A DNA stretch of 64,000 bases from an uncultured virus (IMG/VR IMGVR_UViG_3300043119_000141) (Duplodnaviria > Heunggongvirae > Uroviricota > Caudoviricetes): the IMG/VR virus record IMGVR_UViG_3300043119_000141. One strand, 5' to 3'. The position numbers and the translations under genes are program-made. The notes under the pieces are model-generated. The model ran no database searches. It was not told the origin of the DNA and saw only the letters and a list, made by a program, of their open reading frames with translations. Below are positions 1 through 64,000 of the stretch, piece by piece (the stretch's first letter is position 1; every line of letters begins with the position of its first letter).

Positions 1-99
1 ACCAGCACCCGTGTTAGTAATCGCAGTAACAGTACCACCATTAGAGATATTCACCCCTGAACTACCAGCGGCTAGGTCTATTGCTCCTGTTCCTTTGGA
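1..99. repeat. Exact 99-bp direct repeat, copy 1 (copy 2 at 61988-62086); circularisation/assembly overlap
   Basis: ACCAGCACCC...TCCTTTGGA is identical at both places and diverges at base 100. Confidence 0.9.
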
Positions 100-2235
100 T
101 TGAAATACTTGGGAGATGTTGGTGTCAGGCCCTTGTGACGAAAATACTGGAGATTGAGTTGTTGATGCTCCAGCAACTTGCAAATAATTAACCGCTGTTG
201 CTACAGAGCCATCAATCCTAAATTGACGAGATGTATAACCGTTTTGGTTATAAAAATTAAATGCGCCTGTGCTTTTAGTTATGAAAGCCAAGTTTGGGGC
301 GGCATCGCTACCTTGAGCAGAAATTGTAGGAGGCAAGCCAGTAGCCGCACCAGTCACCTGAACGTAATTGACTGCTGATGCGGTGTGGGCTACTTGGAAT
401 TGATTAAGCCCGCCATTACTTGTTGTAAAAGAAATAGAGCCTGTACCTTTAGAAGTTATAGCAAGGCTTACATTTGTGTCTGAACCTGCTGAACCTAAAA
501 CTGGAGGATTACTTGCTTGTCTACCAGCCGCAAAAATATAATTTACAGCCGACCCAGATAGAAAATACTCTGTTGCTTTAAATGCAGTCCCGTTAGCTGT
601 ATTTAAGTTAACAGCACCAGTACCCTTGGTAGTCAGGTTTAGGTCTATGTTGGTGTCTGAGCCTTGAGATGACAGAATTGGCCCTGAAGCAGTAACAGAG
701 CCAGATGCTTGCAAATAGTTAATAGGGGCTGTAACTGTTCCTGAAACTTGAAACTGTCTATTTCCAGAAGCACCATTTGTGGAAAAGATTAAAGCACCAG
801 TTCCCTTTGAAACAGATGCCAAAGAAACATTTGTATCACTACCCTGTGCGCTAATTGCTGTCCAGTTGGTTGTTGATGAACCAGTTACCTGAACGTAATT
901 GACTGCTGAACCAGTATTGGCAACAACAAGTTGTTTTTGAGTGTTATTGCTTGCGGTGTAAAAGTTAATTGTTCCACCGCCAGTAGAAATCAATCCAAGG
1001 TTGGCGGTATTTGCGGCAACAATCTGTTGTTCATTGATGCCAGCGTTTCGTGTAAATTGCGTGTATGTTGTTGTTCCACCAGCAACAGGGTCAACCTGTA
1101 CGTTACGAGAAGTTGACGAACCTCCTAAGTAAGAAGTTCCAGTAGCAGTAAGCGTAGTAAACGTACCAGCCGCAGGGGTTGTGCCTCCTATGACTGTGTT
1201 GTCAATAGTGCCACCAGTAATTGCAACGGCATTAGCACCTTGTGTAGCAATAGAACCTAATCCAAGATTAGTCCTTGATGTAGATACATCAGCAACGTCT
1301 GAAAGATTATTAGCAGACATCAATGCACCAGCAGCAGACACATATGCGGCTACCCACATAGTGCCTTCATATACTTTCATTACATTAGATGTTGTATTAA
1401 AATACAATGCACCAGTAATTAGTGGATTACCATCGTTATCCACTGTTGGGTCGCTTGCTTTAGGACCAAGATAACGGTCATCAAAGTTATCAAATGCCGC
1501 AAGAGCCGCATCTTTAGCCGCAACAGCAGTTGCCGCTGATGCGCTTGCATTAGACGCACTTGTTGCAGCTCCAGACGCAGAGGATGCAGACTGTACCGCA
1601 TATGCCTGTGCATCAATAGCTGAAAGGTTAGCACTACCACTATAACTTAAAGCACTGTTCTTATATCCTTCGGCTTGTGACGCTGAGGTAGCCGCATTTG
1701 AAGCAGAGATACCCGCAGACGTAGCTGAGGTACCCGCAGTTGTTGCACTGGCAAAAGCTAAGTTAGCCTGTGTAGTCGCTGTGTTAGCTGAAGATGAAGC
1801 ACTGCTTGCTGAATTACTTGCGTTAGTTGCTGAGGTAGATGCGTTAGATGCTGAAGTAGAAGCATTAGACGCAGACGTACTTGCGCTAGTAGCACTTGCT
1901 AAAGCCTCAGCCGCCTTTGTTGTTGCTACACCAGACGCAGATGTTGCGGTAGTAGCTGAATTAGTTGCAGACGTTGCCGCATTAGTTGCCGTTGTTGCCG
2001 CAGATGTTGCTGTTGAAGCAGAAGCCGTAGCAGAGTTAGCAGAGGATAAAGCAGATGAAGCAGAACTTGCAGCAGCAGTTGCAGAAGCTTGTGCTTGTGT
2101 TGCAGCTAATTCAGCCGCAGCCGCTTCCTCTGCAGCCAATTGTTGATAACTTACATTTGTTGTTGTGTTTACGTCATCATATTGTCCACCACTAGATATA
2201 CTAGCGGTTGACCCAGGTTTTTGTTCATATGCCAT
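1..2235 (-). CDS. Long tail fibre, N-terminal 745 codons (runs off window start; continues in frame at 61987 if circularised)
   Basis: Not in the ORF track because it has no stop in the window. ATG at 2235 (MAYEQKPGSTASISSGGQYDD), Ala/Ser/Thr-rich coiled region, FDDRYLG..DPTVDNDGNPLITGALYFNT motif shared with 55864-57183, then repeated QGSDTNI/KGTG/AVNY fibre modules. Confidence 0.85.
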   Translation of the reverse strand, partial: MAYEQKPGSTASISSGGQYDDVNTTTNVSYQQLAAEEAAAAELAATQAQASATAAASSASSALSSANSATASASTATSAATTATNAATSATNSATTATSASGVATTKAAEALASATSASTSASNASTSASNASTSATNASNSASSASSSANTATTQANLAFASATTAGTSATSAGISASNAATSASQAEGYKNSALSYSGSANLSAIDAQAYAVQSASSASGAATSASNASASAATAVAAKDAALAAFDNFDDRYLGPKASDPTVDNDGNPLITGALYFNTTSNVMKVYEGTMWVAAYVSAAGALMSANNLSDVADVSTSRTNLGLGSIATQGANAVAITGGTIDNTVIGGTTPAAGTFTTLTATGTSYLGGSSTSRNVQVDPVAGGTTTYTQFTRNAGINEQQIVAANTANLGLISTGGGTINFYTASNNTQKQLVVANTGSAVNYVQVTGSSTTNWTAISAQGSDTNVSLASVSKGTGALIFSTNGASGNRQFQVSGTVTAPINYLQASGSVTASGPILSSQGSDTNIDLNLTTKGTGAVNLNTANGTAFKATEYFLSGSAVNYIFAAGRQASNPPVLGSAGSDTNVSLAITSKGTGSISFTTSNGGLNQFQVAHTASAVNYVQVTGAATGLPPTISAQGSDAAPNLAFITKSTGAFNFYNQNGYTSRQFRIDGSVATAVNYLQVAGASTTQSPVFSSQGPDTNISQVFQSKGTGAIDLAAGSSGVNISNGGTVTAITNTGAG

Positions 2236-10590: not shown

Positions 10591-12231
10591 CTATAACCAA
10601 GTGGTTTCTATTTGTTGATAGTTACCCATCTTCTGTGAGAAAGGTACTGTTGTGTTTGTTAGCCTATCCCCGTGAGTCCTGATAACCTCAAGGGCAATAG
10701 CAAGGGCAATAACCGTATCATCATTCTGACCTAGAATAGCGTTAGTCTTGCCTGTATCGTCTGCTACATAGTTCATCAGTTCACCGATAATAACTCTGGA
10801 CGGAATCCAGATATCTTCCTGTTCAATAGCATTCTTCAAGAATCCAATAATAGCTGGTTTAGAGGCTGAAGTAGTTCTCCAACCAATTCTGCTACCTTCT
10901 TCTTTGGATACATTCGCCATCTTAGTCTGATAGTACATATTCAGGTAACCCATCTGTGTTAACCTGTTTAGTGTAGCAATACCCATACTGTTAGACTCTA
11001 CAGCTAACAAAGCATTATTGTAGTACCTACCTAAATAAAATAGTAAATCGCCAAACTGACTAGGATCAATCGTATTATTTCTATAAACTGCGCAAACTTC
11101 TCTTCGTGCATTAATGACCACGGCTGTAGAATAATCCTTCCCAACACCCAGGCTAACGTCAGCACCAATAGCAAAAGCATCTTCAAAAGTAGGATACTTA
11201 AATATTTCAATCGATCCATCTCTTAAATCCTCCATCATAGAGGACTCAAAGTTAAATTCTCTCTTCGCTAATATTGGTTGTGGTACCAGCTTACTCAGCT
11301 TTTCAATGTTAAATACATTAGAGCCTGATACAATAAACGCTTCCTCAGGTGTTGCAGGATACTCTTGACGGAACTTATCCTCACCACCCTCCGCAATCTT
11401 TAACCTTCTCCAGTATAACTGGTCATCAGTTAGATTGTACCTTGTAACTAATACTTCTTCTTCTGTTGTTCTTTCAAAACCTTCAGGAGCTTTCCTCTGA
11501 TACTCTGTCATCAAGTACCACGGAACAAAGATAGCTATATAATCATTCTCACCCTTTACAGCTCCTTGCCATAACCTGTGAAATGAATTACCTACTCCAT
11601 TCGCTGTACTCTCAAGAATAACTTCGGTACCTTCCGCTTGAGAAATACCTTGGAATAAACCAGCCAAGATTTTTTCATCATGATTCCAGAAGGCTACCTC
11701 AGACAAGTGAGCAATAGTAGGAGTCGTTCCCCTACCCGCCTCAGGTGCACCAGCCGTGTATAGCCTGTACCCTGAATCATTATGCTCAAACATAATCTCT
11801 TTTGCATTAGACTTCTTTAACACTGGTCTGAAGGTATCAGACATGTTATAGATCGTATTTCTAGACATACCAAACAATGCATCACTGGTAGCGGCATCAT
11901 GAGCCATAACTACTGACTTGTTGTAAGCATTAAAGTAACTCTTCCAGAATACTCGTCCTGTTGTGTATGTACTTAAACCCATTTGTCGAGCTTTAAGAAT
12001 AATAGCTCTGACTCTCCCTGTCTCCTTGAGTTGTTTCTCAAGAGCTTCATTCACAATCTTTTGAGCTTCATTAAACTCAAAGAATTGGAATCCCTTGGAG
12101 GAGTCCTTGGGTAAGATTTTAATTTGTTCTTTGGCGAATAATTCAAAGTCGCCTTTATAAGCAGAAAGTTTCTCCCGCTTTTTTAATTCCCTCAGAGCCT
12201 CTAGCTTATCAGAATTGTTTTGTTGTTTCAT
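10591..12231 (-). CDS. terL: Terminase large subunit
   Basis: ILKARQMGLST Walker A, HLSEVAFW Walker B, ESTANG coupling motif, GADVSLG and DDTVIALA RNase-H-like nuclease. Confidence 0.95.
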   Translation of the reverse strand: MKQQNNSDKLEALRELKKREKLSAYKGDFELFAKEQIKILPKDSSKGFQFFEFNEAQKIVNEALEKQLKETGRVRAIILKARQMGLSTYTTGRVFWKSYFNAYNKSVVMAHDAATSDALFGMSRNTIYNMSDTFRPVLKKSNAKEIMFEHNDSGYRLYTAGAPEAGRGTTPTIAHLSEVAFWNHDEKILAGLFQGISQAEGTEVILESTANGVGNSFHRLWQGAVKGENDYIAIFVPWYLMTEYQRKAPEGFERTTEEEVLVTRYNLTDDQLYWRRLKIAEGGEDKFRQEYPATPEEAFIVSGSNVFNIEKLSKLVPQPILAKREFNFESSMMEDLRDGSIEIFKYPTFEDAFAIGADVSLGVGKDYSTAVVINARREVCAVYRNNTIDPSQFGDLLFYLGRYYNNALLAVESNSMGIATLNRLTQMGYLNMYYQTKMANVSKEEGSRIGWRTTSASKPAIIGFLKNAIEQEDIWIPSRVIIGELMNYVADDTGKTNAILGQNDDTVIALAIALEVIRTHGDRLTNTTVPFSQKMGNYQQIETTWL

Positions 12232-12257
12232 ATAACCTATGTAATAAAAAGTTTTCT

Positions 12258-12274
12258 CTATTATGTACCGGCTA
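12258..12274 (-). promoter_or_regulatory. Phage RNAP promoter (TAGCCGGTACATAATAG) for the terL/structural operon
   Basis: Copy of a 17-bp motif found 10 times upstream of genes. Confidence 0.75.
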
Positions 12275-12576
12275 ACTAAGGAGCAGTGTCTGCGACCCTG
12301 TGTTGATTTATTTATAAAAATAATTCCAATAATTTTAGAAATGTAATCTTTTGTATACTTTTTTTCGGGTACCCCTGCTTTTTATTGGGGGTGTTGTGTG
12401 GGAATGTCTTTGGAGAATTGTCGTGGGTAGAAGTCTTTGTGTGTGTTTAAAAGAATCCAGTGTTGGTTTGGCGTACCCTCTGTGGGTTTCCCTGCCCCCC
12501 TTGTTTTCCTTGCCGTGTCGGTGCGTGGCGCTGCCCGTCTCGGCTTTCCTTGTCCTGCGCTCTTTGGAGGTGTTCC

Positions 12577-12924
12577 GTGGTTTCTTCTCTTTCTTCTTGG
12601 GTCTCTTCTCTTCCCGTCCTTGGCTCTGTGGCTCCGGCTGCTCGCCCGTCTCTTGCCGCTTCCGTTCCTCGTGGTTCTGTCTCTGCTCCCGTGTCTGTTG
12701 TTGCGGTTGCTTTGTCTGGTGCTGACGCTGTGTCTGTTGTTTGCTCTGACGGTCGTGTTCGTGTCTGCCGTGTCCCGTACGCTGTTCGTGCCCTTGGTCG
12801 TCCTGTGTCTCGTGACGCTGTGTTTGCTCGTTTGTCTGCTCGTGTTGGTGGCACTCCTGTTCGCTTTGTTGCCGCTTTTGGCTACTCTGCTGACTCTTGG
12901 TTCGTTGCTGTTGAAGCCGCTTGA
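12577..12924 (+). CDS. First early gene; 115-aa protein encoded with almost no adenine
   Basis: GGAGG RBS at 12566-12570, GTG start, TGA stop; C-terminus aligns with 14466-14750. Confidence 0.75.
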   Translation: MVSSLSSWVSSLPVLGSVAPAARPSLAASVPRGSVSAPVSVVAVALSGADAVSVVCSDGRVRVCRVPYAVRALGRPVSRDAVFARLSARVGGTPVRFVAAFGYSADSWFVAVEAA

Positions 12925-13011
12925 GGGCTTTCTCGGTTGGCTCCTTTGTCGGGGTCTTCCGAGAGCGTCTTGCTCTACCTGCTCCTCGGGGTTTCTGGGG
13001 TTGGAGTTGTA

Positions 13012-13335
13012 ATGTCTTCTTCTCTTGGCGCTTTGTTGCGTGCTAAATTGGAGGAGTCTGCTTTTGCTCCTCGTGTTCCTTTTGTTCGGGATGCGTCTGC
13101 TGTTGTGCCTGTTTGGTATGATGGTAGTACGTATTATCGGCTTGAGGCTGGGGAGCGTGGTATGGAATACTGGACTGAAGACCAGTGGGACAACTACGAA
13201 GCAGATCAGCGTGAGGATTCTATCTGTAATGATATGAATGCTTGCGATGAAGCATTTGACGATGGTGCATATGAACGTATGCAACAAAAACGTGAGCAGC
13301 GTTATTTAGAGAACGATGCTAACTGGGTCAAATAA
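13012..13335 (+). CDS. Early protein with acidic, aromatic-rich C-half (possible DNA mimic)
   Basis: GGAG RBS, ATG at 13012; EYWTEDQWDNYEADQREDSICNDMNACDEAFDDGAYE. Confidence 0.65.
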   Translation: MSSSLGALLRAKLEESAFAPRVPFVRDASAVVPVWYDGSTYYRLEAGERGMEYWTEDQWDNYEADQREDSICNDMNACDEAFDDGAYERMQQKREQRYLENDANWVK

Positions 13336-13429
13336 GGCTTTGTCTATTGGGTGTAACAACCCAATGGAGAACGTCTTTCGTTCGTCCGTGCCTGTCGGTT
13401 ACAGGTTGTCATAGCTCAAGGAGATTAAT

Positions 13430-13612
13430 ATGACTAAGTTAATGCACGTTGTTTACATTCTGTTGTGGTCGCAACTAATGGTGTTCTGTGTCGATAAGAT
13501 ACAGTTTGAGGCAATGTATGGTTGGTTCCATGTCATTGGTCTGATCGCTGCAAGCATCTGTGCTGGTGTACAGATTGCTATCCTGTTAATCGAAATCAAC
13601 GAAGGAGAATGA
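13430..13612 (+). CDS. Small early membrane protein
   Basis: AAGGAG RBS; two hydrophobic stretches. Confidence 0.6.
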   Translation: MTKLMHVVYILLWSQLMVFCVDKIQFEAMYGWFHVIGLIAASICAGVQIAILLIEINEGE

Positions 13613-14465: not shown

Positions 14466-14750
14466 ATGACTACAGCAACCATGAACTTCGCTACTAAAGG
14501 CGATACAGTATCAGCATCATTCACTATGGAGACATCCATGTTGATGGTAGTGTACACAGACCCAGCTAATCGGTATGTATATGCAGTAGATGACAAAGAA
14601 GTTGTCCGTAAACTGTCTATCAGCCGTAATGTTGAGCATGCTCGTAAGCAATACAAGATTGCTCGTGGCTTAGTTGGCAAACAAGTAAGGTTTGGTGTCA
14701 CAGCTGGTTGGAGTTCTGACACTTGGTTCAATGAAATCGTAGAAGCATAA
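14466..14750 (+). CDS. Early protein, apparent paralogue of the A-free protein at 12577
   Basis: AAGGA RBS; shared C-terminal VG..VRF....G[WY]S.D.WF..VEA. Confidence 0.7.
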   Translation: MTTATMNFATKGDTVSASFTMETSMLMVVYTDPANRYVYAVDDKEVVRKLSISRNVEHARKQYKIARGLVGKQVRFGVTAGWSSDTWFNEIVEA

Positions 14751-22176: not shown

Positions 22177-22755
22177 ATGAAATCTAAAACACTACATAGG
22201 CACCATATAATACCAAAACATATGGGTGGAACAGACGATAACTGGAATTTAACTCAACCTATTACAGTAGAAGATCATGCAAAAGCACATAAAGAACTAT
22301 TTGAATTATATGGTAAACCGCAAGATTATATTGCTTGGAAATGCTTAGAAGGAAGTATAACTAATCAAGAAGCAAGAATACTAGCTTCAAAATTAGCAAT
22401 AGCAAAAGAAATTGTAGTTAATAATATAAAATATGATTCAATAGCTGATGCTCAAAAAGCACTGAAGCTATCCTATCGTAGAATAGTAAAAGCTGTAATA
22501 GAAAATAGAGATCCTACAATAAGAGCTGATGCAACACCAATAATTGTTAACGGAGTTAGCTATAAATCTCTTAGAGAAGCTGAAAAAGCTACAGGAATAT
22601 CTAGAGCTAAACTTAAATCTAACACAGATTTAAACAAAGATATGAGAAAAGAAAAAGTTAAATGCCCACACTGTAACAAAGAAGGAGATACACTTAACAT
22701 GAAACGCTGGCATATGGATAATTGTAAACATAAAACTGAAGGTAAAGTTCTCTGA
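22177..22755 (+). CDS. HNH homing endonuclease with NUMOD1-like repeats
   Basis: HRHHIIPKHMGGTDDNWNL...HAKAH; YDSIADA and YKSLREAEKATGI repeats; CPHC. Confidence 0.85.
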   Translation: MKSKTLHRHHIIPKHMGGTDDNWNLTQPITVEDHAKAHKELFELYGKPQDYIAWKCLEGSITNQEARILASKLAIAKEIVVNNIKYDSIADAQKALKLSYRRIVKAVIENRDPTIRADATPIIVNGVSYKSLREAEKATGISRAKLKSNTDLNKDMRKEKVKCPHCNKEGDTLNMKRWHMDNCKHKTEGKVL

Positions 22756-24281: not shown

Positions 24282-24908
24282 ATGGACCATTATGTATACA
24301 TACATTACAAACAAGATACAAAAGAACCTTTTTACATAGGTAAAGGTAATAAAAAGAGATACAAACAAACTACAGGTAGGTCTGAATATTGGAAAAGAAT
24401 AGTAAACAAATACGGTTTTTATTCTGAAATACATTCTTACTATGAAACCCATGAAGAAGCTTTAATTAAAGAAATAGAATTAATTAAAGAATATAAAGAT
24501 CTTGGCTTCAATTTATGTAATATATCTGAAGGTGGTGATGGTATTACCGGCTACAAACATACAGATGATGCTAAAGAAAAAATATCTTTGTCATTTAAAA
24601 ACAAGCCATTATCTGAGGAACACAAAAAGAAAATATCTGAAGCTAAAAAAGGTATAGCTACTGTAGTGTTTACTCAAGAAATTAAAGATAAGCTATCCCA
24701 AGCTTTAAAAGGTAAACGTTTAACGGAAGATAATTGGAACTATAAAGGTAAAATAAAAGCAACAAAAGTTAGTACAGGTGAAGAAATTATCCTTAATACT
24801 ACACACGAAGCAAAGCTAATAGGTTGTAGCCAAGGAACTGTTTCTTTATGTTTAAATGGTAAAAGAAAAACACACAAAGGTTTTAAATTTGAATGGCTAA
24901 ACAACTAA
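24282..24908 (+). CDS. GIY-YIG homing endonuclease with NUMOD3 repeats
   Basis: YVYIH...FYIGKG...R, LCNISEGGDG, HTDDAKEKIS/SEEHKKKISEA, C-terminal HTH. Confidence 0.85.
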   Translation: MDHYVYIHYKQDTKEPFYIGKGNKKRYKQTTGRSEYWKRIVNKYGFYSEIHSYYETHEEALIKEIELIKEYKDLGFNLCNISEGGDGITGYKHTDDAKEKISLSFKNKPLSEEHKKKISEAKKGIATVVFTQEIKDKLSQALKGKRLTEDNWNYKGKIKATKVSTGEEIILNTTHEAKLIGCSQGTVSLCLNGKRKTHKGFKFEWLNN

Positions 24909-30998: not shown

Positions 30999-33203
30999 AT
31001 GAATCCATTAAATTATCTTACTGAACGTGTATCGAAGGTTGTCCCCAACTCAGATAAGATCTACAATGAGGGTGCTCGCCTTCTAGCACACTATCCAACA
31101 TGGGAATATGAACTTGAAAGATTTATCAACGAGTCTTGGGATACATTACTACGCTATTGTATCCGAAACAAAAATGCAACGCATTCTGCGTCAGTTAAGC
31201 TCACCTTTGCTTCAGACCTTATCGGAAAAAGAATTGCAAGAGCAATTGGAGCAGATGAAACAGATATCAAATCAACTCTCAGCCTTGGAGACCTCCTTCT
31301 TGAAACTTTTCTTCAAGACGGACTGATTGATATCTTCAGAGAATATGCTGGTTACAAGGCTCCCTACATGGTACGCATTGTTAATCAAGCAGATGAGATT
31401 AAACCAACACTGATTGGTACTTCATTTGAACCTCTGTTACCTATTGCTGGTCTGTATAGTCCATTGACTAAAGAACCTTTCATTAAGGGCTGGACTAACT
31501 CTAAGTTATTCCATGAGAACCTTAACAAAACCTTTGTAAGATCCCTCGAGACTCTTCGTCAACAACCTTGGAAGCTTAATATACCTGTATTACAAGCTAT
31601 GCAAGAGCAGACTCCTAAGGAAATACTTGAGTTGATTGATGAGGATGGTGTTATAAGACAATACAATATTCACCATGAAAATTTAGAGTTACCTAAGAAA
31701 CTATTCCATACAGACGGTACTAAGTTCCTTGGTAAGAAAGACCCTAAGCTTCAGCGTATGATGAGTAAGTACTTTGAATACATGCAAGTGCTTAAAAAGG
31801 CTGAGATGATTGGTGACAAAACATTCTATCAGGAAGTCTCATGTGACTACCGTGGTCGAGTGTATTATGCAGAATCATTCTTAGAGTTCCAAGGTAGTGA
31901 CTTAGCCCGTAGCTTGTTCTTGTTTGCTAATAAAAAGAAAGTTACTGAGCGTGGATACTACTGGTTATGTGTTCATACAGCAGCTTGTTATAATAAATCA
32001 TTCACAGTAGATGAATTAAAACAACAAGGGTTTTCTACTGACTATATCTCTTATTTAAAAGAAGAAGGTCTTGATACTATCTCTCTTGATAAGATGTCTT
32101 TAGATGACCGCGTTATGTGGGTTAACCAACATTTAGGTTTTATTACATCAACAAGTTTAAATGATGTGATCGATCAATCAGCTGAAAAGCCATATAGTTT
32201 CTTAGCTTGTTGTAATGAAATTGTAGGATACCATAGAGCTAAGTCTGAGGGTAAACCTTTTATGTCTGGACTACCTATCCCTATCGATGGTAGTAATAAC
32301 GGCTGGCAACACTTAGCGGCTATGTCTAAGGACAAACAAGCTGGTACACTGGTGTCGCTTGTTCCTACACCTATCCAGAAAGACTTCTATGTAGCTGTAG
32401 CTAAAGAACTTATTGGTATTATGCCTGAGTACTTTGAAGAGAAACAGATGCCTATGAAACATATCCGTAAGGGTATTGCTAAACGAGGCTCAATGACTCG
32501 TGCATACAGTGCAGGTAAAATGCGTATTGCAAAGAACATGTACGATGATTGTCACGTAGAAGGTTTTACTGTTAAGTACAACATCACTGAAGAACAGTGT
32601 GACATACTAGCAGGTAACCTAATCAAAGCTATTAACACAGTCTGTGCAGGACCACTTAAGACAACTAAATACTTACAAAAGATTGCAGAACATGAACTTA
32701 ACTCAGGAAGAAACCAACTCACATGGACAACCCCTTCAGGGTTCCCAGTAATATACAAGGCTTATCTCCAGCATGAACGAAAACAAAGGGGAACTATTAA
32801 GGGTATTCAAGGGAATAAAGATGGTCGTGTTATGCACGTTATCAAGGTTGATGTCCTTAACAAAGAAACAGGTGAACGGGTACCGTGTAGGAGAAGCTTT
32901 GCTTCGGGTATTAGCCCTAATGTTGTTCACTCCTATGATGCTGCTCATATGGCTAATACTATTGTTAGCTTTAATGGCTCATTTGGTGCCGTACACGATT
33001 CCTTTAGCACACACGCTGATGAGGTTGATTTCCTACAAGAAGTAACTAAGATGACCTTCATTGCCCAGTATGATGTTGAAAACTTCTTTAACATTATACA
33101 GGATACCCTTATGAATCATAGGGATACATTTACTTTTAATCAACCTGAGCTAGGTAACCTAGTACTCAGTGAGGTTATGGACTCTAAGTATTTCTTCTGC
33201 TAG
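30999..33203 (+). CDS. Single-subunit DNA-dependent RNA polymerase (T7-like)
   Basis: DYRGRVY, PIDGSNNGWQH (motif A), RKGIAKRGSMTRAY (B), SPNVVHSYDAAH, AVHDSF (C). Confidence 0.95.
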   Translation: MNPLNYLTERVSKVVPNSDKIYNEGARLLAHYPTWEYELERFINESWDTLLRYCIRNKNATHSASVKLTFASDLIGKRIARAIGADETDIKSTLSLGDLLLETFLQDGLIDIFREYAGYKAPYMVRIVNQADEIKPTLIGTSFEPLLPIAGLYSPLTKEPFIKGWTNSKLFHENLNKTFVRSLETLRQQPWKLNIPVLQAMQEQTPKEILELIDEDGVIRQYNIHHENLELPKKLFHTDGTKFLGKKDPKLQRMMSKYFEYMQVLKKAEMIGDKTFYQEVSCDYRGRVYYAESFLEFQGSDLARSLFLFANKKKVTERGYYWLCVHTAACYNKSFTVDELKQQGFSTDYISYLKEEGLDTISLDKMSLDDRVMWVNQHLGFITSTSLNDVIDQSAEKPYSFLACCNEIVGYHRAKSEGKPFMSGLPIPIDGSNNGWQHLAAMSKDKQAGTLVSLVPTPIQKDFYVAVAKELIGIMPEYFEEKQMPMKHIRKGIAKRGSMTRAYSAGKMRIAKNMYDDCHVEGFTVKYNITEEQCDILAGNLIKAINTVCAGPLKTTKYLQKIAEHELNSGRNQLTWTTPSGFPVIYKAYLQHERKQRGTIKGIQGNKDGRVMHVIKVDVLNKETGERVPCRRSFASGISPNVVHSYDAAHMANTIVSFNGSFGAVHDSFSTHADEVDFLQEVTKMTFIAQYDVENFFNIIQDTLMNHRDTFTFNQPELGNLVLSEVMDSKYFFC

Positions 33204-33236: not shown

Positions 33237-33746
33237 ATGATGCATTACGTCTACATACATTTCAAGAAAGATACTCTTGAGCCTTTCTATATAGGAAAAG
33301 GTAAAGGTTATCGCCATAAACGTACTGACAATAGAAATATTTATTGGAACAATATTGTTAATAAACATGGTTTTGTTTCAGATATTTTAAAACAATTTGA
33401 TAACCACAAAGAAGCTTTAGAATACGAAATAGAAATGATACACTTCTTTAAAAATGAAGGATTTAAACTAGCTAATCTAACAAATGGTGGTGAGGGTATG
33501 CTTAACCCATCTGAAATTACTAGACAAAAACTCAAAGATAATAGCTATATGGCTAAACGTTTACCTAACGAAATACATACATACAAAGGATGTATTTATG
33601 CTACTAACATATTAACCAAAGAAGTTACTGTATTTAATGGCAAAAAAGAATTAATAGCTTTTGGTTTCTTACCAAACAAAGTATATGCTTGCTTAAATGG
33701 TAAAAGAAATACACATAACGGTTATACATTTAATCGATTAAATTAA
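33237..33746 (+). CDS. GIY-YIG homing endonuclease (paralogue of 24282-24908)
   Basis: HYVYIH...FYIGKGKG.R...YWNNIVNKHGF...LANLTNGGEG. Confidence 0.85.
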   Translation: MMHYVYIHFKKDTLEPFYIGKGKGYRHKRTDNRNIYWNNIVNKHGFVSDILKQFDNHKEALEYEIEMIHFFKNEGFKLANLTNGGEGMLNPSEITRQKLKDNSYMAKRLPNEIHTYKGCIYATNILTKEVTVFNGKKELIAFGFLPNKVYACLNGKRNTHNGYTFNRLN

Positions 33747-35930: not shown

Positions 35931-36004
35931 AGCGGGGTAGCTCAGTAGAAGAGCGCTGGACTCATAATCCAGAGGTCAGAGGTGCGACTCCTTTCCCCGC
36001 AACC
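35931..36004 (+). tRNA. tRNA-Met(CAT), initiator-like
   Basis: AGCGGGG/CCCCGCA acceptor with 1:72 mismatch, GCTC D-arm, CTGGA-CTCATAA-TCCAG anticodon arm; T-loop reads TGCGA rather than TTCGA. Confidence 0.85.
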
Positions 36005-57203: not shown

Positions 57204-57506
57204 TTAAGCACCCCAAGGTAGTGGAGCAGGTTGTGGTGTAGGAATATTAGCTTGTGCAATCAATGCATCAACTTCACCTTCCATAGCGGCTACACGATCT
57301 TCACCAAGAGCTGACTTAGTCCAGGACAATGCCTGTTCTTGAGTGATTTCATTAAAGGGTGTAAAATTTTCAGGGTTTGCTGGAAGAAGATTAACAGAGT
57401 AGCTAACTGACTGACCGTCTTTAGCAATAGTAAAGTTAGACATTACTACTGTTTGTGGTTCAGGTTCATTCATAACCTGAAGTGAATTTACTGTCCAATT
57501 ATACAT
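57204..57506 (-). CDS. Tail fibre-associated protein
   Basis: MYNWTV...FTPFNEITQEQALSW...PLPW. Confidence 0.6.
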   Translation of the reverse strand: MYNWTVNSLQVMNEPEPQTVVMSNFTIAKDGQSVSYSVNLLPANPENFTPFNEITQEQALSWTKSALGEDRVAAMEGEVDALIAQANIPTPQPAPLPWGA

Positions 57507-57651
57507 CAACGATCTCCTCATTCTTAGGTGTTTGCTCTTGTACCTGACGAGCAATTTCATTCATAACAAGGAAAGCACCTGTTTTACTAGGCAGTTCTCC
57601 AAGGACTTGTTGAATAAAATTTACTGTGTTATCATCTAATTCGAGTTTCAT
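57499..57651 (-). CDS. Small hypothetical protein (50 aa)
   Basis: MKLELDDNTVNFIQQVLGELP; AGGA RBS. Confidence 0.5.
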   Translation of the reverse strand: MKLELDDNTVNFIQQVLGELPSKTGAFLVMNEIARQVQEQTPKNEEIVDV

Positions 57652-57663
57652 ATATATCCTATA

Positions 57664-57933
57664 TTATACGTCTGTTGCACCAGCGTATTGAGTGAAAGTT
57701 TTTAATACACCATAGATAGCTGGAATCAAGTCGCCTGACAAGTCTTCCATGTTAATATAGTGGGCTTGTTGTTGAATAGAGGGACGACCCGTTTTGCGAG
57801 CCTCCTCTGTTGCATGAATCTCAACTTGAACTTGAAGTTGATCCTTGGTACCAAAGAAGTTTGTGATCCTAGCGTAAGCTTGTACCTCAGACTGTCCATT
57901 GGTATTGTTTGTTGCTGTAATTTGTAGTGCCAT
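57664..57933 (-). CDS. Tail fibre-associated protein
   Basis: MALQ...AYARI...YGVLKT...GATDV, directly after long fibre. Confidence 0.6.
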   Translation of the reverse strand: MALQITATNNTNGQSEVQAYARITNFFGTKDQLQVQVEIHATEEARKTGRPSIQQQAHYINMEDLSGDLIPAIYGVLKTFTQYAGATDV

Positions 57934-57943
57934 ATATAGCTCC

Positions 57944-60900
57944 TTAATAAGTCATTTCTGTTGTACGGATCTGAGCTACACAACGAATAGTTGTAGCCGC
58001 TTGCCCTGTGAAAGTAACTGCCAACCCGCCATTGGTAGTATCTGCTGAAACTGCGATTGTCCAAGTCGATGCCCCTGCATCTGCGTAACTTGATGTGACT
58101 GTCGGTGTTCCTACTAGGGCAGTCGAGGCGGCATTAGCACCACGCTTGATGACACCCTCAATAGTCCATCCTTTTGTGTTGCCACCGCCTGTAACCCCTG
58201 CTACTACTTCACCACGGAAATAGTAAGCAGAGTTGTTGGGTAGGATTACTTGATTTGTTGTGGATGCGGCAGATGCGTCACTTGTTAAAACAGTTGCGGT
58301 TGCATCTGTTGTTTGACGACCTAAAAGCAAAGTGGCAGTTTGAATAATTCCAGAAGAACCGCCAAACGGGGCGTTGCAACACGCTATAGCATTATTTCCT
58401 GCTATTCCTCGTGTTGTTCCAAATGTTCCGCCAGCAATTGTTCCATAAGTACTATTAGCAGTATTACTGTATCCCGCACCAATAAATGCAGATTGACCAC
58501 TTGCTGTATTAGACAAACCACCAACTACCGCAGAAGATGTGCCAGATGCTGTATTTGGATAATTATTATTGGGCGCTCCACTAAATACGCCCCCACCACC
58601 AACAAAAGCACTTATACCACTTGCGGTATTTGCCCGTCCACCAACAACAACAGACCAATCACCAGATGTAGTGTTTCTACTGCTCGCAGTACCTGCATCA
58701 CCACCGCCCCCGATGAAACTGTAACTTCCAGTTGCCTGATTGTTACCTCCTCCTACTACTACTCCATGAGGGGTGTAAAAGGATAGGGTTGATGTTGATG
58801 AACCGCTTGCGGCTTGGGATAGGGTTAGGCTTGTTCCTGAGATTGCGGCAACGTAGGTGTCGTTGGGGTAAGTAAGTATGCTTGTCCCCGCAATTAACTG
58901 ACCAACTTTAATGTTTGCGTTTGAACCTGAAAGTGTTACTGCTGTGGTTCCGTTCATCGTTCCAGATTGAGTCGTCACAACGGCATTAGAGGTAGTTGTA
59001 TTGGAATACCCGCTTCCAATAAAACCATAATGACCAGCGGCGTTGTTTCTAAACCCACTTACAACGGAACTATATCCGCTTCTAGCGTTAGTTTCTAATC
59101 CTGCGCCTATGAAAGAATAACCGCCTGATGAGGTATTTGCAATTCCACCAGCCGCAACTGAACCATATCCAGCCGCTGTATTGTTCGAACCACCACTAAT
59201 AACAGAGAATGTTGTAGCAACCTGTGAAGCCGCACTACGACTTGTCTGCCAATCAACAGCATTAGCACCCCTAGCATTACCACCTGTTGCTGTGGAATCT
59301 GTTTGTTGAGCCTGTAGCGCACCAGTACCTTTTGGTTGTAGGACTAATGGGATGTTTGTGTCAGAACCTGTTGCCACTAGTGAAGGAGCAGAACCTGTGG
59401 CAGAACCTGATGCTTTTAAATAATTTACAGCGGATGCAGTATTTCCAAACCTAAACTGTTCCCAACCAGCACCTACAACGCCAATTTCGCCTGTGTTAGG
59501 GTCATAAAATCCCCTGTTTGTATTTGAAAAACATAATGCAGGATTAGAAACAGAACCTGAATTTGTAACCCTTACAGAGCCTGTTCCTTTAGATGTCAAG
59601 GCCAAACTTATATTAGTGTCTGAGCCTTGAGTAGATATTGTTGGGCCATTTGCAACACCAGTAGCCGCCCCCGTTACTTGTACATAGTTAACAGCAGAGG
59701 CTGTGTGGGCTATGTTAAATTGCGTTTGTGCAAAGTTGTTGGTGTAAAAAGTATGGGCACTTGCACCTTTGGTGCTGTATAAAGCAGATACGTTTGTATC
59801 AGAGCCGTTGGCTAAAACCTGAATTCCAGAATTTGTTCCTGCTCCAGAAAACCGCCAGTAATTTGCACCATTACCACCACCATCATTTACTAATAACTGA
59901 AGGCCAGAAGGGGTATGAAGGCCAAGGTTTGAACCAATAGAGCGAACAACAGTCCCAGACCCCACAGTCGCATAAGCCGCCGCACCACTACCACCGCCAC
60001 CTGAGAAGGTCACAGTGGGTTGTTCAACGTAGCCAGAGCCTGCGTTGGTGATGGTGAAGGTAGGCGCAACACCCCATGCAGTTACGTTAAAAGTTGCACC
60101 AGAACCCGTGCCGCCAGTGACAGAAACTGGATTGGTAGGAATTGCCGTGTATGCAGAACCTCCAGACAAAACTGTAACGCCGGTAATAACACCCGCCGAT
60201 ACTGTATTAACCGTTAGTAGTGAGGCCGCTGCAAAAGTTCCACCAACAAGCGTCAGTGTATCGCCTGCGGTGTAACCTGTACCGCCAGAGACAATAGAAA
60301 CTGCTTGAACAAACACGTTTGCATTTGCTGTTGCCTGAACACCACCAGCAGTTGTTGGGGCGCTGATTGCAATTGCTGGAATTGATGTGTACCCACCGCC
60401 AGAAGATGTACGAGTCAACGCAGTAACAGTACCGCCGTTGCTGATGTTCACCCCTGAGCTACCAGCGGCTAGGTCTATTGCTCCTGTTCCTTTGGATTGG
60501 AATACTTGGGAGATGTTGGTGTCTGAGCCTTGGGCTGACAAGACAGGAGAAATTGTCGTTGCCGAACCTTGTGCTTGAAGGTTGTTGACAACAGTTGAAC
60601 CTGCAAAGCCAACGGCTCTAAAATAATTTCCAAAACTTGTTCCAAGAGCAACGCCGCTTGCACTACCTTTTCCCCGCAAAAGTAAAGAAATTTGGCTATC
60701 AGAACCATCAGCGAAAATTACGGGAGTAACACCAGTAGCCGCACCAGTAATATTAACGTAATTGACTGCTGATGCGGTGTGGGAAACTCTTAATTGTTCT
60801 AAAGAAGCACCATTTGTTAAAAAAGAAAGAGAGCCAGTTCCTTTTGAACCAAAGTTTGCAGAAATATTAGTGTCTGCACCATCTGGAAGAATGAAAGGCC

Positions 60901-63139
60901 CTGCACCAGTTCCTCGTGCGCGTGCTTGGAAATAGTTTACTTGTGGCGAACCACCGCTTCCGTCATACACTCTAAAACCAATACCATTCCCAGTATTTAA
61001 GTTAACAGCACCAGTACCCTTGGTAGTAAGGTTTAGGTCTATGTTTGTGTCTGAGCCTTGGGATGACAAACTTGGTGCGGATGAAGCAACAGAGCCAGTT
61101 ACTTGAATATAGTTAGATGTGCCACCAGTGTGGGCAATCCGAAATTGCTGGTCTGTAGAGTTAGTGTTAAACCTAATTGCTTGAGTGCCCTTACTAGCAA
61201 ATGTCAAACCAATGTTTGTGTCGCTACCTTGTGCAGATAGCGTTGGAAAGTTTGTAGTAGCCGCCCCCGTTACTTGTACATAGTTAACAGCAGAGGCTGT
61301 GTGGGCTACACGGAATTGTTCAGTTGCTGTTCCACCTTGAGTTGTTAGGCGAATTGCTCCTGTCCCGTTTGAGCCAAGTAATAGGTTGGTATTTGCTTCA
61401 CCAGTAGAACGCAATTGAGGCTGAACACCACTAATGCCTGAAAGTGCAACAAGATAATTTGCAGAAGTGCCTCCGTTGCCAGAAACTCTAATTGCCTCAC
61501 CTTCTGGTGTATAGAACGACATCGTAGAGCCAATGCTCTTAACAACAGTCCCAGACCCCACAGTCGCATAAGCCGCCGCACCACTACCACCGCCACCAGA
61601 GAAACTTACTGTTGGTTGTTCTACATAGCCTGAACCTGCGTTGGTGATGGTGAAACCAACTGTACCCCAAGATAAATTAAGCGTTGCTCCAGTACCTGTA
61701 CCACCCGTTACTGATGCAGGGTTTGTCGGTAAAGCAGAGTAGGTGCTTCCTGTAGTTACAGAAATACCTGTGATAACGCCAGCAGAAACAGAAGTTACTG
61801 TTGCTGTTGCGGTTGCTCCTGTAGGAGTGCCACCAACAATGCTTAAAACATTTCCTACTGTATATCCTGTTCCGCCAGATTGAATTGCAACAGACCTGAA
61901 ATACATTGTTGCAACAGACACAGTTGCTTGTACGCCACCCGCAGTTGTTGGCGCAGAAATAGCAACAGTTGGAAAAGATGTATATGTACCAGCACCCGTG
62001 TTAGTAATCGCAGTAACAGTACCACCATTAGAGATATTCACCCCTGAACTACCAGCGGCTAGGTCTATTGCTCCTGTTCCTTTGGAGTCAATAACAAATG
62101 CAATATTTGAATCACTACCAAGTGCCTTTACCTCAACAGCCTTAGTAGTTGCTGAACCTTGTGTTTGAAAGTAATTTGCTGAACCGCCACCACCAGTAAG
62201 CGTAGTAAACGTACCAGCCGCAGGGGTTGTGCCTCCTATGACTGTGCCTTCAATCACCCCGCCGGTGATGGACACGTTGTTGGCGTTCTGTGTGGCAATA
62301 GTGCCAAGGCCGCCAATGTCCGCGGCTGTGAGCACCACAGTGCCCGTGAACCCGTTCACCGACGTCACGGCGTCGGTGTTGTCAATTTTCTGCCACACAG
62401 AACCGTTGAAGATGATCCAGTCACCCACCACCCAGTCTGCAATGCCGTTGATGTTCGTGCTACCCGCCACAGACACCACGTAGTAGTAGCCCTTTGTGCC
62501 AACGCTCGACACGATGGCCGGCACGTTAGTCGCCGCGTTCCACGTGCCCTGATAGCTCACGCCGCCCTGAATTGACGCAGGCAGTTGTGACAGCGGCACC
62601 GTGCCACCTGAGTCCAGTGTGGCCGCACCAAATGGAACACCCGCGTTGAGCAATGCCGCAGACCCGTATGTCTGCCACGTTGTTGCGTAGTCTACGTTGC
62701 TGAGTTTGACCAGCGCCTGACCTGACGTACCGCCTGTGGGTACACCCGCGCCTGTGGGTCCGGGTATGCCTTGAGGCCCCTGTGGTCCCTCTGGTCCGAC
62801 ATTGCCCTGTATGCCCTGAGGTCCCTGAGGCCCTGTGGGTCCCGGCACCCCGCGGTCGCCTGTGTTGCCCTGTGGTCCCTGCGGTCCGGTCTGGCCTGCT
62901 GGACCCTGTGGTCCCTCTTGACCCGCGGGTCCAACGTTGCCCTGTGGTCCGGGATCACCTTGGGGTCCCTGCAACCCAGCGGGGCCCTGCGGTCCAGCGG
63001 GTCCTGTGGGTCCCGTAACGCCGCCTTGAAATACCGACGCGGCCACCTTCTTTGTGATGCCCTGCTGGACAACAACGGTCACATCCTCGGCCTGTACATA
63101 GTCCGTGGGTGGTAGTTGAAGGATGCTTATATCGGCCAT
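57944..63139 (-). CDS. Long tail fibre as assembled; 57944-61987 is the C-terminal part of the genome's fibre, and the part beyond 62086 is an alternative N-terminus with collagen repeats
   Basis: Many QGSDTNI...KGTG...AVNY modules, GGxxN beta-roll repeats near the C-terminus, Gly-X-Y tract at about 62750-63020. Confidence 0.85.
61988..62086. repeat. Exact 99-bp direct repeat, copy 2
   Basis: Identical to 1-99. Confidence 0.9.
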
Positions 63140-63142
63140 GTT

Positions 63143-63819: not shown

Positions 63820-63827
63820 GTCAGTCC

Positions 63828-64000
63828 TTAGTTGTTAGTGTAGCCAGCACCGTAGGCCGTGATAGAACCGTCAGGGTTACGTGATGTGTACTGGATGTCA
63901 AACGTGCCGGCCAAAGTACCTGTAATAGCTGTAATAGCTGTTGCAGTGAACGTCACAGTAGCGTCTGTTGTACCAACGTTGTTCAACACTGTGGCCACAG
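63828..64000 (-). CDS. Partial ORF (3' end), Thr-rich virion protein
   Basis: Open frame ending ...GSITAYGAGYTNN-stop. Confidence 0.45.
   Translation of the reverse strand, partial: VATVLNNVGTTDATVTFTATAITAITGTLAGTFDIQYTSRNPDGSITAYGAGYTNN

What the first reader, a model, noticed from the sequence alone, without database searches (positions are those of the whole stretch)
12476..13140. Adenine-free leader at the start of the early arm (thymine-free template strand)
Seen: in an otherwise AT-rich genome, the + strand has 11 A in 449 nt (12476-12924). In 12476-12724 there is only one A, and it is the A of the GGAGG Shine-Dalgarno. A content then rises gradually (about 18 A in 12925-13140) to normal by ~13150. 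The tract sits where the two genome arms diverge, which is the likely physical end and first-injected DNA (inference). No TATAAT-type -10 box can lie within it on this strand. Candidate explanations, all inference: (a) anti-restriction, because Type I R-M sites and even-length palindromes containing A/T need an A on both strands, so this tract is largely free of them until defence inhibitors are made; (b) if the phage DNA contains dU or modified T, a T-free template strand would escape uracil glycosylase and double-strand breakage; (c) transcription, or transcription-driven DNA entry, with minimal ATP use, or an mRNA resistant to A-specific toxin RNases.
Basis: partly seen in the sequence, partly recalled or inferred. 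Interest (0 to 1): 0.95.

Follow-up and report, generated by a model that had tools for sequence, protein, structure and literature searches.

The report
Phage early genes written without adenine
The first genes of this aquatic phage and its relatives, including the cultured roseophage CRP-7, are real protein genes spelled almost entirely with C, G and T, an unexplained rule that suggests something in the host reads adenine in the phage's first message or first DNA.

Summary
The tract is the extreme compositional outlier of the window.

It is more than a leader. It is a unit made of four parts:
- a conserved GT-rich motif;
- a 117-nt leader with 2 A;
- a real 115-aa gene with an OB-like fold, which has a normal-composition paralogue 2 kb downstream;
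- a conserved hairpin supported by compensatory changes.

The same adenine-purged unit, 58 to 1170 nt long and holding 1 to 3 genes, starts the early arm in 60 of 65 related viral contigs. It is also present in the cultured marine Roseobacter phage CRP-7. It is absent from one more distant relative.

At fourfold-degenerate third positions A is used 8 of 2993 times, against 541 of 1729 in normal genes. Orthologues differ mostly by synonymous changes, so the constraint acts on the nucleic acid and is continuing.

The cause is not settled. My best reading (about 0.35) is that the first message is kept free of adenine, and capped by a 3' hairpin, to escape an adenine-dependent attack on RNA. The main rival (about 0.25) is restriction-proof first-entering DNA. 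The genome end was not mapped, and the promoter was not found.

I found no published description. Earlier notes of this scan report adenine-purged genes on plasmids and A-poor ends of T7-like phages on other DNA.

The parts
10591..12231 (-). Large terminase gene, first gene of the structural arm; marks the divergence point
   Evidence: ORF. 66% nt identity and 60% aa identity to the terminase of Roseobacter phage CRP-7.
12258..12290 (-). Phage-RNA-polymerase promoter-like motif (variant of CGGTACCTAATAG) facing the terminase gene
   Evidence: The core motif recurs at 16214, 24259, 28651, 33205 and 35916 (+) and at 53634 (-), and a one-mismatch variant at 23642 (+). The copies at 16214, 23642, 24259 and 33205 lie just upstream of start codons, 35916 lies just upstream of the tRNA-Met gene and 28651 lies inside the exonuclease gene. 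So the minus arm has its own promoter to the left of the tract.
12365..12376 (.). Conserved GGGTACCCC palindrome in the intergenic region; role unknown
12434..12459 (+). Conserved GT-rich motif (TCTTTGTGTGTG..AAAAGAATC) that directly precedes the A-free run; promoter, terminus or other signal, undecided
   Evidence: Found in 62 of 65 relatives' upstream regions (54 distinct sequences) and only once in the window. The sigma-70 consensus scan found 0 sites in 12150-13500.
12460..12576 (+). Adenine-free non-coding leader (2 A: 12475 and the Shine-Dalgarno A at 12568), with two conserved C-runs
   Evidence: Its folding energy is no lower than that of shuffles (z = 0.30).
12577..12924 (+). Gene 1: 115-aa basic protein (pI 11.1) with GTG start, 10 A in 348 nt, OB-like fold
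   Evidence: BLASTP to the paralogue at 14466-14747 gives E 4e-6. Family alignment A1. Third-position-biased divergence. AlphaFold2 pLDDT 83.7, above 90 for residues 30-115. OB-fold-like matches at Z 5-7.6.
12925..12971 (+). Conserved two-tier hairpin directly after the stop codon of the last A-free gene; keeps 2 paired A (12962, 12964)
   Evidence: 22 distinct sequences give 16 pairs, 3 of them with compensatory double changes and only 2 broken cells. Single-sequence fold z = -1.83.
13012..13335 (+). Gene 2: 107-aa acidic protein (pI 4.3), A-poor only in its first ~40 codons; present in a subset of relatives
   Evidence: No family match.
12460..13117 (+). Whole adenine-depleted segment (658 nt, 24 A)
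14466..14750 (+). Normal-composition paralogue of gene 1 (94 aa), the internal control

Best explanation
What it is (shown, about 0.9). This is the first transcription unit of the early arm of a CRP-7-type podovirus. It consists of a conserved upstream motif, a non-coding leader, one to three small genes, and a conserved hairpin after the last stop codon. Adenine has been purged from the sense strand down to the few positions that function requires: Shine-Dalgarno, start and stop codons, paired hairpin positions, and Asp, Tyr and Glu codons at conserved residues. The genes are real. Gene 1 is an OB-like protein whose relatives elsewhere are written in normal composition.

Why (inferred, about 0.35). 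The property belongs to the RNA. The first message made in the cell gives no foothold to a factor that needs adenine in single-stranded RNA. That factor could be an endoribonuclease or an RNA-modifying enzyme, from a host defence or toxin system, from housekeeping decay at A/U sites, or brought by the phage itself for host shut-off. The 3' hairpin would block exonucleases coming from the ordinary, A-containing RNA downstream, and may be a processing site. The first proteins can then be made when other messages are being destroyed. Lineages under less pressure let A drift back in.
For: Selection acts on the nucleic acid. A at fourfold third positions is 8 of 2993 in 41 distinct A-poor genes, against 541 of 1729 in 22 normal genes of the same arm.

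The constraint is continuing. Orthologues differ mostly at third positions (1369 differences, against 693 and 555 at positions 1 and 2; 930 synonymous codon differences), yet never towards A.

The purge also covers the untranslated leader. Many relatives use an A-free GGGG ribosome-binding site.

The right-hand border coincides with an RNA-type structure. The hairpin has compensatory changes. In 13 of 25 distinct loci that have the hairpin, the A-poor segment ends 20-45 nt after its CCGAGAG arm.

Among retained A, the A-T dinucleotide is avoided. GAT:GAC is 18:80 and TAT:TAC is 7:52, against 188:122 and 129:100 in normal genes. T follows A 144 of 714 times although T is 41% of the tract.

The degree of purging varies between close relatives. 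The same protein family exists as 14 A-purged, 4 intermediate and 26 normal representatives. That pattern fits an arms-race pressure better than a structural need.

A defence enzyme that reads adenine in single-stranded mRNA is known: CmdT (PMC11618068, abstract and passages).
Against: - No transcript data: start site, processing and half-life are unknown, and no promoter was recognised.
- No adenine-reading enzyme was identified in any host.
- A-poorness runs about 100-160 nt past the hairpin in 9 of 25 loci, this window included, and stops before it in 2.
- The leader is not unusually folded.
- G-A is the commonest context of retained A (328 of 714), so a CmdT-like G-A reader is not what is being avoided.
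- The NAC-over-NAT bias could be ordinary translational selection.
- The counts over relatives are not phylogenetically independent.
- Earlier notes of this scan report A-poor, reportedly untranscribed, ends in T7-like phages. If those are the same phenomenon, they point to DNA rather than RNA.
Confidence: 0.35

Rival explanations
1. Restriction-proof antechamber (DNA level). The tract is the first DNA to enter and stays alone in the cell until its products are made. An A-free strand cannot carry any site that needs adenine on both strands, which covers Type I and inverted Type III sites and every palindrome containing A/T. The hairpin would then act as a stop that gates further transcription-driven entry.
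For: The logic follows from the sequence itself. The only palindromes still possible are also depleted in 49 distinct tracts: GGCC 19, CGCG 19 and CCGG 18, against Markov expectations of 67, 52 and 77. The phage is clearly under restriction pressure, since these three are the lowest of all 256 tetramers in the rest of the window (observed/expected 0.39-0.47). A content rises with distance. The phage has T7-like replication and RNA-polymerase genes and giant virion proteins. GT-rich short repeats lie just upstream. Earlier scan notes describe A-poor ends in T7-like phages (unchecked).
Against: - The physical end is not mapped.
- No T7-like phage is among the 41 of 479 terminase relatives listed. 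Outside the clade the nearest are Vibrio phage and uncultured Caudoviricetes records, and T4-like cyanophage and Stx-phage types are among the most numerous, so fixed ends are not assured.
- About 230 nt of ordinary, A-rich DNA lie between the terminase gene and the tract.
- Palindrome depletion is genome-wide, not specific to the tract, and GCGC is not depleted in tracts (123 observed, 66 expected).
- This reading gives the covarying hairpin no necessary role.
- Tract length varies 20-fold between close relatives.
Confidence: 0.25
2. Template-level protection or nucleotide economy. A thymine-free template strand lets RNA polymerase cross the first operon when thymine is damaged (UV dimers), modified or replaced by uracil, or when ATP is depleted by a defence system.
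For: A T-free template removes all T-containing dipyrimidines. Upstream blocks would hurt every downstream gene, which predicts the observed gradient. These are surface-water phages (CRP-7 was isolated from surface seawater). A dCMP deaminase and a nucleoside 2-deoxyribosyltransferase-like gene are present.
Against: - A recurs about 15 nt into the leader of most relatives and in start codons, so transcription cannot proceed without ATP.
- Retained A sit in G-A-C and G-A-G contexts, which give T-C dipyrimidines on the template.
- GG (template CC) is only mildly low, at 0.64-0.82.
- Protecting 0.2-1.2 kb of a genome of about 60 kb gains little.
- No thymidylate-synthase-like, hydroxymethylase or other base-modification gene was found among the 58 ORFs scanned against Pfam.
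Confidence: 0.1
3. The A-poor composition belongs to a genome-end or packaging element, as at the terminal repeat and concatemer junction of T7-like phages. The first genes merely lie inside it.
For: GT-rich short repeats and a conserved motif precede the tract. Earlier scan notes describe A-poor terminal regions in several T7-like lineages (unchecked).
Against: Most of the tract is coding and turns over by gene gain and loss. The sequence is not conserved as a signal, only the composition is. The terminase is not of T7 type among the relatives listed. No repeat of this region occurs elsewhere in the window.
Confidence: 0.08
4. A local, strand-specific mutational process removes adenine without selection for A-freeness. 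Candidates are self-templated adenine mutagenesis of the kind made by diversity-generating retroelements, or damage to an exposed strand.
For: It would give an absorbing A-free state with A kept only where selection defends it.
Against: - No reverse transcriptase appears among the 58 ORFs scanned against Pfam or the 26 scanned against PHROGs.
- The lost A is replaced about equally by T, C and G, unlike deamination.
- The borders are sharp and shared across a clade spanning marine and other-sample phages.
- C is not depleted.
Confidence: 0.05

Closest known systems
Cleavage-site-free messages that escape sequence-specific mRNA endonucleases (ACA-less mRNAs under MazF; recalled, not checked in a paper here)
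   Same: Immunity comes from composition: the message lacks the letters the enzyme needs, and synonymous sites carry the signal.
   Different: Here a whole nucleotide is removed rather than a triplet. The amino-acid alphabet of gene 1 shrinks to 15 residues, with 10 making up about 92%. No cognate enzyme is known.
First-step-transfer region of phage T5 and the slowly entering left end of T7 (recalled)
   Same: The earliest-expressed block sits at the head of the genome. The idea is to keep it free of restriction sites until protective proteins exist.
   Different: Entry order and termini are unknown here. The avoidance is of a base on one strand, not of particular sites. The terminase is not T7-like among the relatives listed.
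RNase III processing hairpins between T7 early cistrons (recalled)
   Same: An irregular two-tier hairpin with an internal loop sits between early cistrons, conserved by compensatory changes. It could leave a protective 3' end.
   Different: No sequence relation was tested and no cleavage data exist. It has no match in Rfam.
CmdTAC defence: CmdT ADP-ribosylates N6 of adenine in GA of single-stranded mRNA (PMC11618068; abstract and passages read)
   Same: It shows that bacterial immunity can read adenine in mRNA, including in Shine-Dalgarno sequences. Many relatives here use an A-free GGGG site.
   Different: G-A is the most common context of the retained A, so this particular specificity is not what is being avoided.
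Roseobacter phage CRP-7 (MK613349.1; PMC6918029)
   Same: Same genome plan. Its terminase is 60% identical, and it carries its own 737-nt tract with 15 A ahead of gp01.
   Different: The passages of the paper naming CRP-7 do not mention the tract. The record annotates a minus-strand ORF (gp72) across it, probably a false call in stop-free DNA.

Membership tests
CRP-7-type podoviruses | Terminase, portal and capsid on one arm; DNA polymerase, exonuclease, primase-helicase and T7-like RNA polymerase on the other; three giant virion proteins | tested here: met
   PHROGs and Pfam hits. The CRP-7 annotation shows the same order. Terminase 60% aa identity.
Site-free first-entering DNA (T5 first-step-transfer / T7 left end) | The segment is the first DNA to enter the cell | not testable with these tools
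Contig ends are uninformative.
Site-free first-entering DNA (T5 first-step-transfer / T7 left end) | Depleted of restriction sites relative to the rest of the genome | tested here: inconclusive
   A/T-containing palindromes and two-strand adenine sites are impossible in an A-free strand. GC-only palindromes are depleted 2.7-4.3 fold in tracts, but also 2.1-2.6 fold genome-wide, and GCGC is not depleted in tracts.
T7-type terminal repeat / concatemer junction | Non-coding repeat region at the genome end, packaged by a T7-type terminase | tested here: not met
   The tract holds conserved genes. No second copy occurs in the window. No T7-like phage is among the 41 of 479 terminase relatives listed. 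The end itself is unmapped.
Cleavage-site-free mRNA | The message lacks the enzyme's target letters at synonymous and non-coding positions | tested here: met
   A at fourfold third positions is 8 of 2993. The leader has 2 A in 117 nt.
Cleavage-site-free mRNA | A cognate adenine-dependent RNase or modifier acts during infection | not testable with these tools
   The hosts of the uncultured relatives are unknown, and no host genome was examined.
Diversity-generating retroelement (adenine mutagenesis) | Reverse transcriptase and a template repeat | tested here: not met
   No reverse transcriptase among the ORFs scanned. No long repeat of the tract.
OB-fold nucleic-acid-binding proteins (gene 1) | Five-stranded barrel with a helix between strands 3 and 4, and similarity to known members | tested here: inconclusive
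   The model shows strand-strand-strand-helix-helix-strand-strand at high confidence. The best matches are OB-fold chains (AB5 toxin B subunits, SSB, PriB, RecG wedge) at Foldseek E 4e-3 and Z 5-7.6, which is within the range of chance for this tool. No sequence family matches.
RNase III-type intercistronic processing hairpin | Conserved irregular hairpin between cistrons | tested here: met
   16 pairs, 3 with compensatory changes, across 22 distinct sequences.
RNase III-type intercistronic processing hairpin | Cleaved by RNase III | not testable with these tools
   No RNA data.

The most novel reading that the evidence does not exclude
Invading DNA follows a general, undescribed rule: its very first message is written in a three-letter alphabet without adenine. 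This would reveal a widespread adenine-reading attack on RNA (or on its template) in aquatic bacteria that has not been characterised. Alternatively, the phage brings its own adenine-specific shut-off enzyme and is immune to it by composition. The CRP-7-type phages would be the first culturable system in which to find that enzyme. The adenine-purged DprA-like genes of plasmids noted earlier in this scan would be the same phenomenon.
Probability: 0.25. Interest if true: 0.92.

Novelty: categorically new. Interest (0 to 1): 0.86.

Why it matters
Protein-coding genes kept almost free of one nucleotide, over a clade spanning marine and other-sample phages, show that a strong selective agent reads single adenines (or template thymines) at the start of infection.

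Finding that agent would add a new layer to phage-host conflict. It would explain similar adenine-purged genes on plasmids, and it would give a design rule for messages or DNA that survive it.

The case also shows that a confidently predicted OB-like fold (AlphaFold2) can be written with about ten amino acids plus a few Asp, Tyr and Glu. And it flags a systematic annotation error: stop-free tracts attract false ORFs on the wrong strand, as in the CRP-7 record.

A cultured phage-host pair (CRP-7 / FZCC0042) makes the question directly testable.

Tried and rejected
- Sigma-70 consensus scan of 12150-13500: 0 promoter-like sites and 3 terminator-like sites, no more than in shuffles. By eye I could not place a convincing -35/-10 pair on the conserved motif.
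- Rfam with permissive threshold on 12200-13450: one sub-threshold match, outside the tract.
- Leader fold no better than shuffles.
- Genome ends:
  - Nine contigs that stop near the junction stop at different places.
  - Of 5 near-complete relatives, 1 is classed as having terminal repeats, and its ends lie about 11 kb into the early arm.
  - The right end of the window (63140-64000) is GC-richer minus-strand coding DNA, not a repeat of the junction.
- Function of the early proteins:
  - No PHROGs or Pfam family for genes 1 and 2, the paralogue or their neighbours.
  - tblastn of gene 1 and of the paralogue against 50,697 phage records found nothing.
  - Word-based protein searches found close relatives only.
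  - The protein atlas gave no hit at 0.9 or above.
- Context of normal-composition family members: a search with P0037 found no locus in the viral contigs. The diverse alignment A3 was too variable for the tool. Alignment A1 returned only A-purged copies (16 of 35 loci examined, and I took the rest to be contigs already seen, without checking).
- Literature: searches for adenine-free, adenine-depleted, adenine-poor, A-less and related terms, and for phage early genes lacking adenine, returned nothing relevant among the papers listed (15 of 736, 40 of 181). Only title and abstract listings were seen. The passages of the CRP-7 paper that name CRP-7, and term searches in a 2025 roseophage paper, do not mention the tract. 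I did not read whole texts or supplements.
- Ideas dropped:
  - An antisense, U-free leader for the terminase arm, because that arm has its own promoter-like motif to the left of the tract.
  - ATP-free transcription, because of the early A in the leader.
  - Evasion of a G-A-specific reader, because G-A is the commonest retained context.
- T-runs are strongly depleted in tracts (TTTT at 0.17 of shuffle expectation). The T-rich third codon position can explain this, so I draw nothing from it.
Full report
**Observation.** The counts are exactly as reported.
- 12476-12924 has 11 A in 449 nt. 12476-12724 has 1 A in 249 nt. 12925-13140 has 18 A in 216 nt.
- The single A in 12476-12724 is at 12568, inside GGAGG.
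- The window averages 75.7 A per 250 nt (sd 15.1).
- A log-odds maximal segment gives 12460-13117 (658 nt, 24 A, score 151.6). The best segments poor in C, G or T score 20.1 or less. The second A-poor segment (62745-63016, score 41.4) lies in a collagen-repeat part of a minus-strand tail gene.
- The lost A is replaced about equally by T, C and G (T 40%, C 30%, G 28%), so this is not a deamination signature.

**Setting.** The window is a podovirus genome with two arms.
- The large terminase gene (10591-12231), portal, scaffold and capsid genes run leftward.
- The early and replication genes run rightward from about 12.46 kb: endonuclease VII, a gp2.5-like SSB, DNA polymerase, exonuclease, primase-helicase, a T7-like RNA polymerase at 30999-33203, and ribonucleotide reductase.
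- The plan and the terminase (60% aa identity) match the cultured marine Roseobacter phage CRP-7.
- A phage-promoter-like motif (CGGTACCTAATAG) recurs at seven places, counting the one-mismatch copy at 23642. Four copies lie just ahead of start codons, one lies ahead of the tRNA-Met gene and one lies inside the exonuclease gene. A variant faces the terminase gene at 12290-12258. The structural arm therefore has its own promoter to the left of the tract.

**Anatomy of the tract.**
- A 26-nt GT-rich motif (12434-12459) directly precedes the A-free run. It is found in 62 of 65 relatives and only once in the window.
- Next comes a 117-nt leader with 2 A and two conserved C-runs.
- A GGAGG site lies 6 nt before a GTG at 12577. 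The ORF runs to a TGA at 12922-12924.
- A conserved hairpin follows at 12925-12971.
- A second gene follows at 13012-13335. Its first ~40 codons are still A-poor, with 13 A in 43 codons.

**The tract codes for protein.**
- The 115-aa product of 12577-12921 aligns to the 94-aa product of the normally composed ORF at 14466-14747 (BLASTP E 4e-6).
- An alignment of 12 A-poor orthologues and 10 normal paralogues has invariant D58, G91, V95, F97, G102, W108 and F109.
- Among 12 orthologues, differences fall 693, 555 and 1369 on codon positions 1, 2 and 3, with 930 synonymous codon differences against 862 non-synonymous (all pairs, not independent).
- AlphaFold2 on that alignment gives pLDDT 83.7, above 90 for residues 30-115. 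The model is strand-strand-strand-helix-helix-strand-strand.
- Fold searches return OB-fold chains (AB5 toxin B subunits, SSB, PriB, RecG wedge, LEF-3) at Foldseek E 4e-3 and Z 5-7.6. This says OB-like and no more.
- The protein is basic (pI 11.1) and uses 15 residue types, 10 of which make up about 92%.
- A profile search of 1.84 billion representatives found 48 proteins at E 0.001 or better. Four are long multi-hit proteins that I set aside. Of the other 44, judged by the share of residues that can be encoded without A:
  - 14 are A-purged (share 0.86 or more);
  - 4 are intermediate (0.75-0.81);
  - 26 are ordinary (0.40-0.67).

  The same fold is thus written both ways in nature.

**Conservation.**
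- A terminase search of IMG/VR found 204 relatives, and the best 80 (82-100% aa identity) were kept.
- In the 65 loci with at least 700 nt upstream, an A-poor maximal segment always begins 87-281 nt from the terminase start. It is 58-1170 nt long, scores 30 or more in 60 of 65 and 100 or more in 24 of 65.
- In 473,134 other bases of these loci, nothing A-poor or T-poor scores above 13.4.
- Long tracts hold further genes, each with its own ribosome-binding site (often GGGG, without A) and an ATG. These include small membrane peptides and a 178-212-aa Ala/Ser/Val-rich family ending in YFCAVS.
- CRP-7 itself has a 737-nt tract with 15 A at 57347-58083, just ahead of gp01 (score 188.6, next best 10.6). 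It contains a plus-strand ORF of about 128 aa ending in WFCAVSPA. The record instead annotates a minus-strand ORF across it.
- A more distant two-armed podovirus record (MW202692.1, terminase 33% identical) has no such tract (best score 24).
- Sixteen further loci examined from a gene-1 search all carry the tract.

**The constraint acts on the nucleotide and is continuing.**
- At third positions of fourfold codon families, excluding Thr, A is used 541 of 1729 times in 22 normal genes of the early arm. It is used 8 of 2993 times in 41 distinct A-poor genes, and 0 of 97 in gene 1.
- The A-containing codons that remain are mostly GAC 80, TAC 52, GAG 19, GAT 18 and GAA 17, which encode Asp, Tyr and Glu at conserved residues.
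- Synonymous sites have turned over many times without ever settling on A.
- The strictness differs between close relatives. Some keep 0-2 A per 50 nt for 850 nt or more. Others let A return to 4-10 per 50 nt in the same genes.

**The hairpin.**
- In 22 distinct sequences, 16 pairs are predicted. Three show compensatory double changes, several show G-C/G-U changes, and only 2 cells are broken.
- Two A are retained in its 3' arm.
- There is no U-run after it, so it is not a classical intrinsic terminator.
- In 13 of 25 distinct loci with the element, the A-poor segment ends 20-45 nt after the CCGAGAG arm. In 9 loci, including the window, it runs 96-159 nt further into the next gene. In 2 it ends earlier, and 1 is cut by the contig end.

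**Weighing the explanations.**

*RNA-level reading.* An adenine-purged message with a 3' barrier accounts for the purge of both leader and genes, the A-free ribosome-binding sites, the hairpin border, the lineage-to-lineage relaxation, and the extra avoidance of A-T among retained A. That avoidance is GAT:GAC 18:80 and TAT:TAC 7:52, against 188:122 and 129:100 in normal genes. A defence enzyme that reads adenine in single-stranded mRNA exists: CmdT (PMC11618068). Its G-A preference does not fit, however, because G-A is the commonest retained context (328 of 714).

*DNA-level reading.* Restriction-proof first-entering DNA is coherent. An A-free strand excludes every site that needs adenine on both strands. 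The only palindromes left (GGCC, CGCG, CCGG) are 2.7-4.3 fold below Markov expectation in tracts. They are also the three most depleted tetramers genome-wide, at 0.39-0.47. This reading needs the tract to enter first and alone. I could not test that, and the terminase type does not encourage it.

*Other readings.*
- ATP-free transcription fails, because A recurs early in the leader and in start codons.
- The UV and modified-thymine ideas have little support.
- A purely mutational origin lacks a reverse transcriptase and does not fit the replacement spectrum.

I put the RNA reading at about 0.35, the restriction reading at about 0.25, and the rest below 0.1 each. A real chance remains that the cause is something not listed here.

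**Comparison with what is known.** The closest ideas are:
- site-free messages under sequence-specific mRNA endonucleases;
- the site-poor first-entering DNA of T5 and T7;
- T7's intercistronic processing hairpins.

All three are recalled rather than checked here. None removes a whole nucleotide from coding genes. Two literature searches (title and abstract listings only) and passages of the CRP-7 papers gave no description of this.

Earlier notes of this scan, which are unchecked AI notes, report adenine-purged DprA-like genes on plasmids and prophages, and A-poor ends in T7-like phages, on other DNA. They suggest the phenomenon is wider, and they pull in both directions on RNA versus DNA.

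**Limits.**
- There are no transcript, terminus or base-composition data.
- The promoter is unidentified.
- Hosts of the uncultured relatives are unknown.
- Pooled counts over relatives share ancestry.
- Supplements of the papers were not read.

Noticed in passing
window 16214, 23642, 24259, 28651, 33205, 35916 (+); 53634, 12268 (-): A recurring motif (TAG.C)GGTACCTAATAG. Six copies, counting the minus-strand ones, lie 15-30 nt upstream of start codons, one lies upstream of the tRNA gene, and one (28651) lies inside the exonuclease gene. It is probably the promoter of the phage's own T7-like RNA polymerase. The polymerase gene itself (30999) lies behind such motifs, so how it is first expressed is unclear.
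   Followed up: partly
MK613349.1 (CRP-7) 57271-57966, locus L082: The GenBank record annotates a minus-strand ORF (gp72) across the stop-free A-poor tract. The conserved plus-strand ORF (about 57608-57994) is not annotated. This is probably a false gene call caused by the composition.
   Followed up: partly
window 62745-63016: The second A-poor stretch on the plus strand (272 nt, 18 A) lies in the collagen-repeat N-terminal part of the 1731-aa minus-strand tail protein. The repeat explains it, and it is unrelated to the finding.
   Followed up: partly
window, whole (outside 12300-13400): CGCG, GGCC and CCGG are the three most under-represented of all 256 tetramers (observed/expected 0.39-0.47). 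Several 6-bp palindromes are absent. This is a classic sign of restriction pressure.
   Followed up: yes
window 62-1174 versus 60459-62222: Scattered 25-mer identities at varying offsets between the left end of the window and the big tail-fibre gene. These may be repeat modules or a second fibre-like gene.
   Followed up: no
window 63140-64000: This stretch is visibly GC-richer than the rest of the phage (by eye, not computed) and carries a minus-strand ORF starting near 63820. It may be a recently acquired tail-module gene. The structural arm continues beyond the window.
   Followed up: no
window 35931-36004: A tRNA-Met (CAT) gene lies directly behind a promoter-like motif. The CRP-7 paper reports a tRNA-Arg in that phage.
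   Followed up: partly
window 22177-22755, 24282-24908, 33237-33746: Three NUMOD-type homing-endonuclease-like genes are scattered through the replication module.
   Followed up: no
protein P0005 (94 aa, 94% identical to the product of 14466-14747): One source names this small OB-like protein '3-methyladenine DNA glycosylase Mpg'. No family search here supports that name.
   Followed up: no
tracts of 49 distinct relatives: T-runs are strongly depleted (TTTT at 0.17 and TTTTT at 0.08 of shuffle expectation) although T is 41%, while CCCC is enriched 1.7-fold. Codon structure may explain the T-run depletion. The two conserved C-runs in the leader are unexplained.
   Followed up: partly
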